From the NCBI RefSeq assembly GCF_003334255.1, contig NZ_QOWU01000053.1: a DNA stretch of 39,954 nucleotides; one strand, given 5' to 3'. The notes below the pieces were generated by a model that saw only the letters and a program-made list of their open reading frames with translations, did not search any database and was not told the origin of the DNA. Positions 2,393 to 5,700 of this stretch are shown piece after piece. Positions within the stretch are counted from its first letter, which is position 1, and every line of letters starts with the position of its first letter. The DNA is from Escherichia coli. GTDB taxonomy: Bacteria; Pseudomonadota; Gammaproteobacteria; Enterobacterales; Enterobacteriaceae. A program made the position numbers and the translations under genes.

Positions 2393-2754
2393 CATATTTC
2401 GCATTTGAATATTGGTCAGGATCTCACACCTGCTTCATGTGAAACTCTTCCCTGATGATTTCTGCCGGGCTACCGGCTAGTTCTCTTTCGCAGTTTGCCA
2501 GGCGGTATCGGTATTTTCAGGAGGAAAAGACTCGGCATGTTTGGGATTATTAAGCTGACAATTCATACGATTACGGGAATGTGGGTCAGTATTGTGTTGT
2601 TCAAATTGATGACGAATGGCTGGAGTGGTTTCTACTTTCAGTGCTGTGTACTAAGCCTGGTATTCCTGACGGTTAGCTGGTTGTTGAGTGGTGAATGGTT
2701 AGCAGGAAAGAGTAAGGCTGAACCTTCATGTTCAACCTTACTCTCATTTACACG

Positions 2755-5700
2755 TTACGCTTTTTTAAAGCGGGCAAAGAGATGTTCCACTACAACGAAA
2801 AAGACCGGAACGAAGTAAATTGCCAGCACTGTTGCGGCAAACATCCCGCCCATCACGCCGGTACCTACCGCGTTTTGCGCGCCAGAACCGGCACCATGAC
2901 TGATAACCAGCGGCAGCACGCCGAGAATAAAGGCCAGAGAGGTCATCAGGATTGGGCGTAAACGCATCCGCGCCGCTTCGATGATTGCCTCTATCGGCGT
3001 TTTCCCTTCTTTCTGCATCATCTCAACGGCAAATTCGACAATCAGGATGGCGTTTTTGGCGGAAAGCCCGATGGTGGTCAGCAAACCAACCTGGAAGTAG
3101 ACGTCATTACTTAAGCCGCGCAGATCGGTGGCCAGTAATGCGCCAACGACGCCTAACGGAACAACCAACATCACCGAGAACGGAATTGACCAGCTCTCAT
3201 AGAGTGCGGCGAGGGCGAGGAACACCACGACCAGTGAAATCGCATACAGCGCAGGAGCCTGATTTGAGGATAACGCTTCCTGATACGATAGTCCGGTCCA
3301 TGAGTAGCCGACGCCTGCCGGAAGTTTAGCGACCAGGTCTGCCATAAATTTCATGGCGTCACCGGTACTTTTCCCGGCCGCCGCTTCACCTAAAATCTCC
3401 ATTGACGGGATGCCGTTGTAGCGTTCCAGTCGCGGTGAACCATAGGTCCATTCGGTAGACGAGTAGGCAGAAAGCGGTGCCATCGTGCCAGAGGCGTTGC
3501 GTACATACCATTGGTTGATGTTATCCGGCAACATACGGAACGGCGTGCCTGCCTGGACATACACTTTTTTCACCCGCCCCTGGTTGAGGAAGTCGTTCAC
3601 GTAGCTGCTGCCGAAGGCGGTGGAAATTGTCTGGTTGATATCAGACAGCGCCACGCCCATCGCTTCAGCTTTCGCAGCGTTGACGTTCACTTTGAACATC
3701 GGCGTATCTTCCAGGCCGTTCGGGCGTACCCCGGTGACCTGATTCGGTGATTGCGCTGCCAGTGATAACAGCTCGTTTCGCGCCTGGGTTAGTTTTTCGT
3801 GCCCCAGGTTACCGTTGTCCAGCAGTTCCATATCAAAACCTGACGCGGTACCCAGTTCAGCCACCGCGGGTAAGTTGAACGGGAAGACGACGGCTTTATT
3901 GATACTGCTTAACGCAATCATTGCCCGCTGAATGATCGCGGTAACCGAGTTTTCCTCACCGACACGTTCAGACCACGGCTTGAGACTGATAAACGCCAGG
4001 CCGTTGTTTTGCCCCTGACCGCTGAAGCCAAAGCCGCCAACGGTAAACACCGACTGGACATTATCTTTCTCTTTAGTCAGATAATAATCCGTCACCTGTT
4101 GCAGCACTTTCGTGGTGTTAACCATGGTGGCACCGGAAGGTAACTGCGCGGTGGTCATAAATACCCCCTGATCCTCTTCTGGTAAGAAAGAGGTCGGCGT
4201 GCGCAGGAACAGCACCGCCATCCCGGCGCAAATCAGCAGGTAGACCACCATGTAGCGACCGGTACAACGCAACAGCGAGCGGGTGCTATCGGTATAGTGT
4301 TGAGTTGATTTTTCAAACAGCGTGTTGAAGCGTGCGAACAGGGCGTTAGGTTTGTGACCGCCTTCCGGCGCGGCTTTCAGAATGGTGGCGCACAGGGCAG
4401 GGGTCAGGCTCATTGCCACAAATACTGAAAGCAGCATGGAGGAGATCAGCGTGATGGAGAACTGGCGGTAGATCTCCCCGGTTGCACCGCTCATAAAGGC
4501 CATCGGCATAAACACTGCGGAAAGAACAACGGCAATACCGACCAGCGCACGTTGGATCTGCCCCATCGATTTATGCGTCGCTTCCTTCGGCGGTAGCTTA
4601 TCTTCCGCAATGACACGCTCGACGTTCTCCACCACCACGATGGCGTCATCCACCAGTAACCCTATCGCCAGCACCATCCCGAACATAGTCAACGTGTTGA
4701 TGGTGAAACCGACCGCCGACAAGATCGCAAACGTCCCGAGAATAACCACCGGTACGGCAATCGTCGGGATGATTGTGGCACGGAAATTCTGCAAAAACAG
4801 ATACATGACCAGGAAGACTAGGATGATAGCCTCAACCAGTGTTTTGAAAACTTCCTGAATAGAAATTTCGATAAACGGCGTGGTGTCGTAAGGATAAACC
4901 GTCTTCAGACTTGCCGGGAAATAGGCTGATAAGCGGTTCAGTTCCTCTTTGACTGCCCGCGAGGTATCCAGGGCGTTTGCTCCGGCAGCCAGTTTGATGG
5001 CGATCCCGGCAGCAGGTTTGCCGTTATAGCGCGCCACGGTGGAATAATCTTCCGCCCCAAGTTCGACGCGAGCGACATCACGCAGCAGCACTTGCGAACC
5101 ATCTTGCTGAACTTTCAACAGGATTTTGCCAAATTCTTCTGGCGTTTGCAGACGCGTCTGCACAATGATCGAGGCGTTTAGCTGCTGGTCTGCCGCCTGT
5201 GGCATGCCACCCAGTTGACCACCGGAAATCTGGTTGTTTTGCACCTTAATCTGGGAAATAACATCGGAAGGTACCAGGTTATATTTATTGAGTTTTTGCG
5301 GGTCCAGCCAGATACGCATGGCATACTCGGAACCAAAGAGTTGTACGCTACCAACGCCCGCGGTACGGCTTAGCGGGTCTTTGATATTAGACGCTACATA
5401 GTCCGCGATATCGTACTGGTTGAGGCTGCCGTTATCAGAAATAAACGCCGCTACCATCAGGATATTACTGCTCGACTTATCGACGCTAATCCCCTGCTGC
5501 TGCACTGCTTCAGGTAATGAAGGCATAGCGAGTTGCAGTTTATTTTGCACTTGAACCTGTGCGATATCAGGAGATGTCCCAGTCTCGAAGGTCAGAGTGA
5601 TAGAGGCATTGCCCGCCGCATCACTGGTTGAAGACATGTACATCAGGCCATCAAGCCCATTCATATTTTGCTCAATCACCTGAGTGACCGAGTCTTCTAC

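What the first reader, a model, noticed from the sequence alone, without database searches (positions are those of the whole stretch)
2495..2818. Candidate small hydrophobic ORF between gadW and mdtF, convergent with the mdtF 3' end
An ORF in the 360-bp gadW-mdtF spacer encodes a hydrophobic stretch (MFGIIKLTIHTITGMWVSIVLFKLMTNGWSGFYFQCCVLSLVFLTVSWLL) and has an AGGAGG motif about 12 nt upstream of the internal ATG at 2537. It could be an unannotated small membrane protein, but it overlaps the mdtF stop region by 64 nt and may be a chance ORF.
Basis: seen in the sequence. Interest (0 to 1): 0.25.

Follow-up and report, generated by a model that had tools for sequence, protein, structure and literature searches.

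The report
Acid-induced small membrane protein gene (sORF15)
The open reading frame between gadW and mdtF is a real, evolutionarily conserved gene for a small two-helix membrane protein of the E. coli acid-resistance island, but two ribosome-profiling studies had already reported it (XECs371 in 2017, sORF15 in 2023), and its function is still unknown.

Summary
The ORF spans 2495-2818 with an internal ATG at 2537. AGGAGG lies at 2519-2524, 12 nt upstream. The product has two hydrophobic segments, and the ORF overlaps the mdtF 3' end by 64 nt.

It is not a chance ORF. In seven Escherichia lineages, out to E. albertii, the 93-codon frame from the ATG is intact and has no indel. The Shine-Dalgarno and ATG are invariant. 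For codons 1-55, dN/dS is 0.04-0.16, similar to gadW, while the other two frames show no such constraint.

E. fergusonii has a syntenic 54-aa ortholog made of the two helices only. It starts 19 nt after the gadW stop and does not overlap mdtF. The functional core is therefore the two-helix hairpin. The E. coli tail is read antisense through the mdtF terminator hairpin and the last 21 mdtF codons.

The TTG start at 2495 is not supported; the gene is 2537-2818.

The gene is absent from K-12 RefSeq and from PGAP annotation, but it is already published: XECs371 (Hücker 2017) and sORF15 (Schumacher 2023; about 18-fold acid-induced, FLAG-tag western blot). It matches no known family (Pfam, NCBIfam, PADLOC, PDB, 1.84 billion representatives).

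The most likely role, which is inferred, is an acid-induced accessory or modulator of a larger inner-membrane protein. Novelty: already known.

The parts
2537..2818 (+). Coding sequence of the small membrane protein (93 codons plus TAA). It is identical to the published sORF15 and to XECs371 without that entry's N-terminal extension.
   Evidence: ORF listing and translation. Identical nucleotide and protein sequence in Table S7 of PMC10746267, NC_000913.3:3663464-3663745(-). Frame intact in 7 Escherichia lineages and 5 further E. coli genomes.
2519..2524 (+). Shine-Dalgarno sequence AGGAGG, 12 nt upstream of the ATG.
   Evidence: ATTTTCAGGAGGAAAA is invariant in all 7 aligned lineages, whereas the spacer upstream is about 50% variable and has indels. 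The spacer length to the ATG is invariant.
2537..2701 (+). Conserved core, codons 1-55. It forms two transmembrane helices (about residues 2-26 and 31-57) joined by a short loop, with the invariant motif NGWSGFYF.CC.
   Evidence: dN/dS 0.04-0.16 against dS up to 1.1; summed pN/pS 0.14. Hydropathy profile. AlphaFold2 helices 2-26 and 31-57, pLDDT about 70-80. The E. fergusonii 54-aa ortholog covers only this part.
2702..2818 (+). C-terminal basic tail, codons 56-93 (10 K/R against 2 D/E), with a predicted third helix at residues 65-88. It is encoded antisense to the mdtF terminator hairpin and the last 21 mdtF codons.
   Evidence: pN/pS is 0.31 for codons 56-72. For codons 73-93 all changes are synonymous on both strands, because third codon positions coincide. 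The tail is absent in E. fergusonii. Rare frameshifted-tail variants exist in databases.
2708..2745 (-). Hairpin 9 nt downstream of the mdtF stop, probably the mdtEF terminator. It lies inside the tail-coding part of the small gene.
   Evidence: The 16-bp stem gives -26.3 kcal/mol on the minus strand (z = -5.0). On the plus strand it has an internal mismatch, and the 81-nt fold that includes a second small hairpin totals -23.8 kcal/mol. A compensatory U-A to C-G change occurs in L005. The U-tract is weak (CUCUUUCCUGCU).
1664..2392 (+). gadW, the upstream gene on the same strand and the presumed co-transcribed partner.
   Evidence: K-12 annotation. No sigma-70-like promoter was found on the + strand in 2200-3000. 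In E. fergusonii the small ORF starts 19 nt after the gadW stop. GadW and sORF15 are both induced at pH 4.4. The paper places sORF15 in the gadXW transcription unit.
2755..5868 (-). mdtF, the convergent RND permease gene. Its last 64 nt are overlapped by the small gene.
   Evidence: ORF listing and annotation.
2495..2536 (+). It is not part of the gene.
   Evidence: pN/pS is 1.11 for 2498-2518, and the TTG is TCG in L004. The in-frame region upstream of the ATG differs in length between lineages. The published start is the ATG.

Best explanation
Window 2537-2818 is a genuine protein-coding gene of the Escherichia acid fitness island.

Shown:
- It encodes a 93-residue protein whose first ~55 residues are under purifying selection as strong as that on gadW.
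- It is translated and about 18-fold induced at pH 4.4 in K-12 (published Ribo-seq). It also shows RIBOseq signal in EHEC.

Inferred from sequence:
- The core is a two-helix transmembrane hairpin with the N- and C-termini in the cytoplasm, because the tail carries 10 K/R. A short periplasmic turn carries the invariant (N/H)GWSGF motif, followed by an invariant Cys-Cys pair in helix 2.
- The gene is expressed as the distal cistron of the gadX-gadW transcript from its own conserved Shine-Dalgarno.
- The C-terminal tail of the E. coli form exists because the reading frame runs antisense through the mdtF terminator hairpin and the last 21 mdtF codons. The E. fergusonii ortholog stops before them, so the tail is probably accessory.

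Mechanism, inferred and not shown: like other bacterial small membrane proteins, it most likely acts by binding and modulating a larger inner-membrane protein during acid stress. The candidates suggested by context are the RND pump MdtF and the glutamate/GABA antiporter GadC. I put about 0.4 on the 'modulator of a larger membrane protein' class and no more than 0.2 on any single partner.
For: Identity with published sORF15: Ribo-seq log2FC +4.21 (padj 1e-38), RNA +4.03 at pH 4.4, DeepTMHMM 2 TM, pBAD24-sORF15:3xFLAG western blot positive. Independent RIBOseq detection as XECs371 in O157:H7 Sakai, with ribosome coverage value 1.2-1.5 and a predicted 2-TM inner membrane location.

Conservation: the frame is intact and indel-free in 7 lineages. 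dN/dS is 0.04-0.16 in frame, against roughly 0.2-3.9 in the other two frames. Calibration genes: gadW 0.05-0.10 and mdtF about 0.02, with comparable dS. Amino-acid changes are significantly fewer than under random placement of the same substitutions.

E. fergusonii: a syntenic 54-aa ortholog. Nucleotide identity is 54%, with differences of 22/11/38 by codon position. 21 of 51 residues are identical and hydropathy correlation is 0.67, while the other two frames are full of stops.

Population: the spacer is present in 5409 of 5426 complete E. coli genomes. The two main alleles are each seen on at least 1000 contigs and are also recorded from Shigella.

Structure: helices 2-26, 31-57 and 65-88.
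Against: - No chromosomal tag, mass-spectrometry detection or phenotype exists. The western blot came from an arabinose-induced plasmid.
- The SD-ATG spacing of 12 nt is longer than optimal.
- The E. fergusonii form has a GTG start and no obvious SD.
- No partner has been tested. Synteny with mdtF is synteny of the whole island, so it carries little independent weight.
- AcrZ already co-purifies with MdtF in one study, so MdtF may not need another small partner.
- Selection on the tail cannot be separated from selection on the mdtF terminator and mdtF codons.
- The AlphaFold model has only moderate confidence (mean pLDDT 64).
- At least one natural strain carries an IS insertion in the gene, so it is not essential.
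Confidence: 0.85

Rival explanations
1. It is a chance ORF in a 3' UTR that is translated pervasively, and the product has no function.
For: ORFs of this length are common by chance in the window. The ORF is unannotated in K-12 and by PGAP. It matches no known family. Its neighbour sORF14 has Ribo-seq signal and yet is not conserved, which shows that Ribo-seq signal in this UTR does not by itself prove function.
Against: dN/dS is 0.04-0.16 with dS up to 1.1. There is no indel or stop in 7 lineages. The SD and ATG are invariant. Protein-level conservation extends to E. fergusonii at 54% nucleotide identity.
Confidence: 0.03
2. The conservation reflects RNA-level or DNA-level function and the ORF is incidental. 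Candidate functions are the gadW 3' UTR, antisense pairing with the mdtF 3' end, or the mdtEF terminator.
For: The region 2702-2818 does carry other constraints. A structured hairpin with a compensatory change lies 9 nt after the mdtF stop, followed by mdtF coding sequence. Any plus-strand transcript that reaches the ORF's stop codon is complementary to the mdtF mRNA across the 64-nt coding overlap, and further if that mRNA extends through the hairpin. The leader shows conserved blocks and a possible SD-sequestering fold.
Against: The core, 2537-2701, lies outside the hairpin and outside mdtF, and its substitutions are concentrated at third codon positions (16/8/33). RNA structure or antisense pairing does not predict that pattern. 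In E. fergusonii the ORF is kept without any overlap. This rival explains the tail, not the gene.
Confidence: 0.05
3. It is a type I toxin-like or membrane-perturbing hydrophobic peptide, whose expression is limited by antisense overlap with the mdtF mRNA.
For: The protein is small and hydrophobic, its mRNA overlaps a convergent transcript, and it is induced under stress.
Against: No known toxin or antitoxin RNA family matches in 1-8000 at E <= 1, and Pfam has no hit. At 93 aa with two helices and a long basic tail it is atypical. The E. fergusonii ortholog has no antisense overlap. The tagged protein accumulated detectably after 1 h of arabinose induction, and the paper passages I read do not mention toxicity. 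The gene is fixed as a single copy at one syntenic site across the genus.
Confidence: 0.04
4. The product is the longer 107-aa protein from the TTG at 2495, or the 118-aa form called in EHEC.
For: The ORF is open from 2459. The TTG is present in 6 of 7 lineages. Hücker 2017 called a longer form.
Against: pN/pS is 1.11 for 2498-2518, the TTG is TCG in L004, and there is no SD upstream of it. The length of the open frame upstream varies between lineages. The invariant SD is correctly placed for the ATG. A plasmid carrying only 15 nt upstream of the ATG produced the protein. The E. fergusonii form aligns from the ATG.
Confidence: 0.03

Closest known systems
sORF15 (Schumacher et al. 2023, mSystems, PMC10746267), the same ORF as XECs371 (Hücker et al. 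2017, PLoS One, PMC5597208)
   Same: It is the same gene. The nucleotide and protein sequences are identical to sORF15 at NC_000913.3:3663464-3663745(-). The Sakai XECs371 entry contains it with R65 and an N-terminal extension. Both papers predict an inner-membrane protein with 2 TM helices.
   Different: Nothing differs in the object itself.

Added here:
- quantitative evidence of purifying selection across the genus;
- rejection of the upstream start;
- the short 54-aa E. fergusonii ortholog, which defines the core;
- the reading of the tail as antisense of the mdtF terminator and mdtF codons;
- evidence that sORF14 is not conserved;
- doubt about the reported homologs in unrelated genera.
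AcrZ (YbhT), the 49-aa accessory protein of the AcrB RND pump
   Same: Both are small inner-membrane proteins. AcrZ is a plausible functional analogy because the gene here lies next to the AcrB homolog mdtF and is co-induced with it. AcrZ itself co-purifies with MdtF (PMC11539335).
   Different: There is no sequence similarity; no Pfam family matched, even at E <= 10. This protein has two predicted helices and AcrZ has one. No binding data exist. The analogy is a hypothesis only.
SafA (B1500), a small membrane connector of the acid-resistance network (EvgAS to PhoQP; from established knowledge, not checked here)
   Same: Both are small membrane proteins encoded in an acid-resistance operon together with an AraC-family regulator (safA-ydeO; here gadW-sORF15). 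Both are induced by acid. SafA acts by binding a larger membrane protein.
   Different: No homology was detected in any search. SafA has a single TM helix. The target of the protein studied here is unknown.
Antisense overlapping ('overprinted') genes reported in EHEC, such as pop, ano and laoB
   Same: The last 21 codons are read antisense to mdtF codons in the phase where third positions coincide.
   Different: Only a terminal 64 nt overlaps. The conserved functional core is intergenic, and the overlap is absent in E. fergusonii.

Membership tests
sORF15 / XECs371 orthologous group | Sequence identity with the published ORF and the same genomic position, downstream of gadW and convergent with mdtF | tested here: met
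   Identical 282-nt and 93-aa sequence in Table S7. The window aligns 100% to K-12 at this position.
sORF15 / XECs371 orthologous group | Ribosome occupancy and acid induction | not testable with these tools
   Taken from the literature only: Ribo-seq log2FC +4.21 and RNA +4.03 at pH 4.4; RIBOseq in Sakai.
Protein-coding gene under purifying selection | dN/dS well below 1 in the proposed frame and not in the other two frames; frame, start and SD conserved | tested here: met
   dN/dS 0.04-0.16 against roughly 0.2-3.9 in the other frames. Frame intact in 7 + 5 genomes. SD and ATG invariant. Randomisation P <= 0.001 for the three most distant species.
Two-pass inner-membrane small protein | Two hydrophobic helices of transmembrane length, with positive charge on the cytoplasmic side | tested here: met
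   Kyte-Doolittle maxima 1.68 and 1.95. AlphaFold2 helices 2-26 and 31-57. The tail has 10 K/R against 2 D/E. Localisation and topology have not been tested experimentally.
AcrZ family (small RND-pump accessory protein) | Sequence match to the AcrZ Pfam family | tested here: not met
   No Pfam-A match at E <= 10. No NCBIfam match.
AcrZ family (small RND-pump accessory protein) | Physical binding to the RND permease | not testable with these tools
   No interaction data exist. Adjacency to mdtF is only context.
Type I toxin-antitoxin | Known toxin family, or a dedicated antisense sRNA | tested here: not met
   The Rfam E-value scan of 1-8000 found only GadY, ES205 and a chance miRNA hit. There are no Pfam or PADLOC hits.
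Type I toxin-antitoxin | Toxicity on overexpression | not testable with these tools
   The paper detected the tagged protein after 1 h of arabinose induction, and the passages I read do not mention toxicity.
Any structurally characterised family | Sequence or fold match to a solved structure | tested here: not met
   The profile search against PDB sequences gave 0 hits at E <= 1. Foldseek against PDB gave its best hit at E = 9.4. The model is of low to moderate confidence, so the fold search has little power.

The most novel reading that the evidence does not exclude
The protein could be a dedicated, genus-restricted small subunit or regulator of an acid-stress membrane machine. In that reading it would be a two-helix functional analogue of AcrZ for the MdtEF-TolC pump, or a modulator of the GadC antiporter. 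Its basic C-terminal tail in E. coli, Shigella and E. albertii would have been created by extending the reading frame antisense through the mdtF terminator and into mdtF codons. That would be a case of de novo sequence gain by overprinting on a conserved core.
Probability: 0.15. Interest if true: 0.6.

Novelty: already known. Interest (0 to 1): 0.3.

Why it matters
The acid fitness island of E. coli K-12 is one of the most studied stress loci. Even so, this conserved gene is missing from the RefSeq K-12 record and from PGAP annotation of more than 5400 complete genomes.

The evolutionary evidence here moves it from a Ribo-seq candidate to a gene that should be annotated, and it separates it from its neighbour sORF14, which should not be.

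There is also a practical consequence, which is an inference. Standard mdtF deletions that keep only the last 21 nt of mdtF would replace roughly the last 14 codons of this gene, and gadW insertions may be polar on it. Phenotypes assigned to those genes could therefore be partly confounded.

The function, if found, would add a component to the Gad/MdtEF acid-resistance system.

Tried and rejected
- **Family searches.** Pfam, NCBIfam and PADLOC scans gave no hits. A profile search of 1.84 billion representative proteins found only Escherichia variants and fragments plus the E. fergusonii ortholog. A second word-index search seeded with the E. fergusonii protein found only itself. The PDB sequence search and Foldseek found nothing.
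- **Leader RNA structure.** RNAalifold proposes pairing of a conserved pyrimidine stretch with the SD. There is no covariation, and the energy is not better than shuffles (z = -0.99). I kept it only as a lead.
- **Promoter scan.** No sigma-70-like site was found on the + strand between 2200 and 3000. One weak terminator-like hairpin lies at 2464-2477, and its downstream T-rich tail is removed by a 10-nt deletion in L003.
- **TTG start.** Rejected.
- **Frameshifted-tail variants from the protein database.** I considered these as evidence that the tail is dispensable. They are rare (tens of contigs against thousands) and could be sequencing errors in homopolymer runs, so I give them little weight.
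- **Weaver et al. 2019.** No supplementary files are held for it, so I could not check whether initiation profiling at neutral pH saw this start.
- **Population survey.** I did not survey all 5409 genomes for frame integrity; I sampled only five plus one IS-disrupted strain.
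Full report
**Locus.** The window begins in the E. coli acid fitness island. The features are gadX (472-1296, +), the GadY sRNA (1308-1421, -; Rfam 150 bits), gadW (1664-2392, +), mdtF (2755-5868, -) and mdtE (5893-7050, -). The finding concerns the 362-nt gap between the convergent 3' ends of gadW and mdtF.

**Observation.** All the stated features are present.
- The ORF runs 2495-2818 (+), 107 codons from TTG.
- An in-frame ATG lies at 2537 and gives 93 codons.
- AGGAGG lies at 2519-2524, 12 nt before the ATG.
- The quoted hydrophobic peptide is exact.
- The stop is TAA at 2816-2818, 64 nt inside mdtF on the opposite strand.
- Kyte-Doolittle 19-residue windows peak at 1.68 (residues 4-22) and 1.95 (residues 32-50).

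ORF length is not remarkable. Antisense ORFs of 114-145 aa occur inside mdtF and mdtE.

**Annotation status.** The curated K-12 MG1655 record has nothing between mdtF and gadW. In 5409 of 5426 complete E. coli genomes the spacer is present at 95-100% identity, and the only feature listed under the match in the 30 records shown is mdtF. Gene callers in other pipelines do sometimes call the ORF, always as a hypothetical protein, with no Pfam domain, and only in Escherichia or Shigella records.

**Conservation test.** I retrieved the orthologous region from six species-level representatives through GadW: E. coli SCPM-O-B-8794, Escherichia sp. MOD1-EC7003, a strain labelled E. coli E69, Escherichia sp. 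E1V33, E. whittamii and E. albertii. Their identity to the window here is 83-95%.

In the alignment the stretch between the gadW stop and the SD is poorly conserved: 66 of 129 columns vary and 14 columns contain gaps. From ATTTTCAGGAGGAAAA through the ATG to the stop there is not one gap column in 300. The 93-codon frame is intact in all seven sequences.

In the part of the ORF that lies outside the mdtF terminator and mdtF itself (2537-2701, 55 codons), the results are:
- Variable columns fall 16/8/33 by codon position (chi-square p = 0.0002).
- Nei-Gojobori dN/dS against the window is 0.04-0.16, with dS rising to 0.85-1.1 in the distant species.
- The two alternative frames give ratios of roughly 0.2-3.9, with no consistent constraint.
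- gadW in the same loci gives dN/dS 0.05-0.10 (dS 0.24-2.4), and mdtF gives about 0.02 (dS 0.16-0.67). The small ORF is therefore constrained about as much as its regulator neighbour.
- Placing each lineage's observed substitutions at random gives far more amino-acid changes than observed. For E. albertii the random mean is 14.7 and the observed number is 4. P <= 0.001 for the three most distant species.

This rules out a chance ORF.

**Start codon.** The seven codons after the TTG (2498-2518) have pN/pS = 1.11, the TTG is TCG in L004, and there is no SD in front of it. The open frame upstream of the ATG varies from 78 to 159 nt among lineages. The invariant SD sits at a fixed 12-nt distance from the invariant ATG. 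The gene is 2537-2818.

**Within E. coli.** Five genomes taken from the low-identity end of the spacer range, including O157:H7, all carry an intact 93-aa ORF. They differ from the window only by Arg instead of Cys at residue 65. Both alleles are recorded on at least 1000 contigs, and the same sequence is recorded from Shigella flexneri and S. boydii. Variants with a frameshifted tail exist but are rare, at tens of contigs. One O121 strain has an IS66/IS1 block inserted in the ORF.

**A distant ortholog defines the core.** A profile of the orthologs was searched against 1.84 billion representative proteins and found 19 hits. Eighteen are variants or fragments of the same protein. The remaining one, P0048, is a 54-aa protein from E. 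fergusonii ATCC 35469 (E = 2e-6).

It lies in the same place, and the full island (gadE-, hdeD-, hdeAB- and yhiD-like genes) sits alongside.
- It is downstream of the gadW ortholog (62% identical protein).
- It is convergent with the mdtF ortholog (93% identical).

It starts with GTG 19 nt after the gadW stop. It ends 42 nt before the mdtF stop, and a GC-rich hairpin (GGCCGG-TTTC-CCGGCC) lies between them.

Over 51 aligned codons:
- Nucleotide identity is only 54%.
- Differences fall 22/11/38 by codon position.
- 21 residues are identical, and the hydropathy correlation is 0.67.
- The other two frames are full of stops.
- The GWSGF.F.CC motif and GIIKL are kept.

The conserved unit is therefore the two-helix hairpin of about 55 residues. 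The 38-residue tail of the E. coli form is lineage-specific. With no outgroup I cannot say whether it was gained or lost.

**The tail and the overlap.** Codons 56-72 are the antisense of a hairpin that begins 9 nt after the mdtF stop.
- On the minus strand the hairpin has a perfect 16-bp stem (-26.3 kcal/mol, z = -5.0).
- On the plus strand the stem has an internal mismatch.
- Escherichia sp. E1V33 carries a compensatory U-A to C-G change in it.

It is most simply the mdtEF terminator, although its U-tract is weak.

Codons 73-93 are antisense to the last 21 mdtF codons, in the phase where the third positions of both frames coincide. All substitutions there are synonymous on both strands. Selection on the tail as protein therefore cannot be separated from selection on mdtF and its terminator (pN/pS is 0.31 for codons 56-72). 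The tail is strongly basic, with 10 K/R against 2 D/E. AlphaFold2 predicts a third helix at residues 65-88 with low confidence.

**Literature.** The ORF is already published.
- *Schumacher et al. 2023* (mSystems, PMC10746267) found it by inspecting the gadW 3' UTR in Ribo-seq data from K-12 and named it sORF15 (93 aa). They list exactly this sequence at NC_000913.3:3663464-3663745(-). They report Ribo-seq log2FC +4.21 (padj 1e-38) and RNA log2FC +4.03 at pH 4.4 against pH 7.6. They predict two TM helices and a possible third helix, and they detected a 3xFLAG fusion by western blot from an arabinose-induced plasmid carrying 15 nt of native leader. They place it in the gadX-gadW transcription unit and suggest GadC or MdtF as possible partners. 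GadW itself is induced by log2FC 3.03 in the same data.
- *Hücker et al. 2017* (PLoS One, PMC5597208) listed the same ORF in O157:H7 Sakai as XECs371. It carries a longer N-terminal extension, has RIBOseq ribosome coverage values of 1.2-1.5 in two rich media, and is predicted to be an inner-membrane protein with two TM helices.

I found no follow-up study or gene name.

Both papers cite near-identical homologs in unrelated genera: Staphylococcus epidermidis and Klebsiella in one, and Vibrio, Salmonella and Enterococcus in the other. The E. fergusonii ortholog is only 41-49% identical, and the exhaustive search found nothing outside Escherichia-type sequences. Those records are therefore more likely contaminated or mislabelled assemblies. 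I did not inspect them.

**What it is and how it probably works.** Shown by my analysis and the published data: this is a translated, acid-induced gene conserved across the genus.

Inferred:
- The protein is an N-in/C-in two-helix inner-membrane hairpin, with a short periplasmic turn bearing the invariant (N/H)GWSGF motif and an adjacent Cys-Cys pair.
- It is expressed as the last cistron of the gadXW mRNA. The supports are that no sigma-70-like promoter was detected, that the E. fergusonii form is tightly linked to gadW, and that induction is parallel.

No family, domain or structure matches. By analogy with characterised bacterial small membrane proteins, such as AcrZ with AcrB, or SafA with PhoQ in the acid-resistance network (the latter from general knowledge), the most likely mode of action is binding and modulating a larger membrane protein during acid stress. 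MdtF and GadC are candidates by context only, and AcrZ already co-purifies with MdtF.

**Rivals.**
- Pure chance or non-functional translation is excluded by the substitution pattern.
- An RNA-level explanation accounts for the tail region but not for the third-position bias in the core, nor for retention of the ORF in E. fergusonii without any overlap.
- A type I toxin reading has no support from family searches and does not fit the architecture.

**Verdict.** The gene is unannotated in reference records but already reported twice, so novelty is 'already known'. New in this analysis are the quantitative selection evidence, the E. fergusonii short form, the core/tail dissection, and the negative result for sORF14.

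Noticed in passing
window 2439-2480 (+): The published candidate sORF14 (13 aa, GTG..TAG, also acid-induced in Ribo-seq) is not conserved as a reading frame. The start is GTA in L004, L006 has an in-frame stop, L007 has frameshifts, and the stop codon is lost in most relatives.
   Followed up: yes
window 2387-2422 (+): An invariant 7-bp inverted repeat, TCCTGAC...GTCAGGA, begins on the gadW stop codon in an otherwise variable spacer. One C-to-U change keeps the pairing as G.U, and there is no compensatory change. Its function is unknown; it could be an RNA processing or stability element of the gadW mRNA.
   Followed up: partly
window 2436-2453 pairing with 2519-2539 (+): The consensus fold pairs a conserved pyrimidine stretch, which lies inside sORF14, with the sORF15 Shine-Dalgarno, and pairs CATGT with the start codon region. 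This could be an SD-sequestering leader that upstream translation would open. There is no covariation, and the energy is no better than shuffles (z = -0.99).
   Followed up: partly
L008 (NZ_CP119441.1, E. coli O121 strain 201805972), insertion near window position 2577: An IS66-family element plus an IS1 copy is inserted inside the small gene, which makes this strain a natural knockout. Only about 6 of the 5415 genomes with a match lack one place covering at least 80% of the query.
   Followed up: partly
window 2729-2731 (codon 65): The window carries Cys65, as K-12 does. O157:H7, four other sampled E. coli genomes and four of the six other Escherichia lineages have Arg65, so the laboratory-strain allele is the minority state.
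   Followed up: partly
L014 8001-8186 (E. fergusonii ATCC 35469): The short 54-aa ortholog is annotated there as 'hypothetical protein; putative exported protein'. It has a GTG start 19 nt after the gadW stop and no obvious SD, which suggests translational coupling to gadW. A clean GC-rich hairpin follows it and could act as a bidirectional terminator.
   Followed up: partly
literature: PMC5597208 supplementary tables and PMC10746267 Fig. S9C: Both papers list near-identical 'homologs' in Staphylococcus epidermidis, Klebsiella, Vibrio, Salmonella and Enterococcus. The E. fergusonii ortholog is only 41-49% identical, and the exhaustive search found nothing outside Escherichia-type sequences, so these are probably contaminated or mislabelled assemblies.
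   Followed up: partly
window 2755-2818: A standard in-frame mdtF deletion that keeps only the last 21 nt of mdtF would replace roughly codons 80-93 of the small gene, and insertions in gadW may be polar on it. This is a possible confounder for published mdtF and gadW mutant phenotypes. It is an inference from coordinates and was not tested.
   Followed up: no
window 7200-7271 (-): There is an Rfam ES205 sRNA match (105 bits) between gadE and mdtE. By position this appears to be the sRNA that K-12 annotates there as GadF; I did not map the coordinates onto each other.
   Followed up: no
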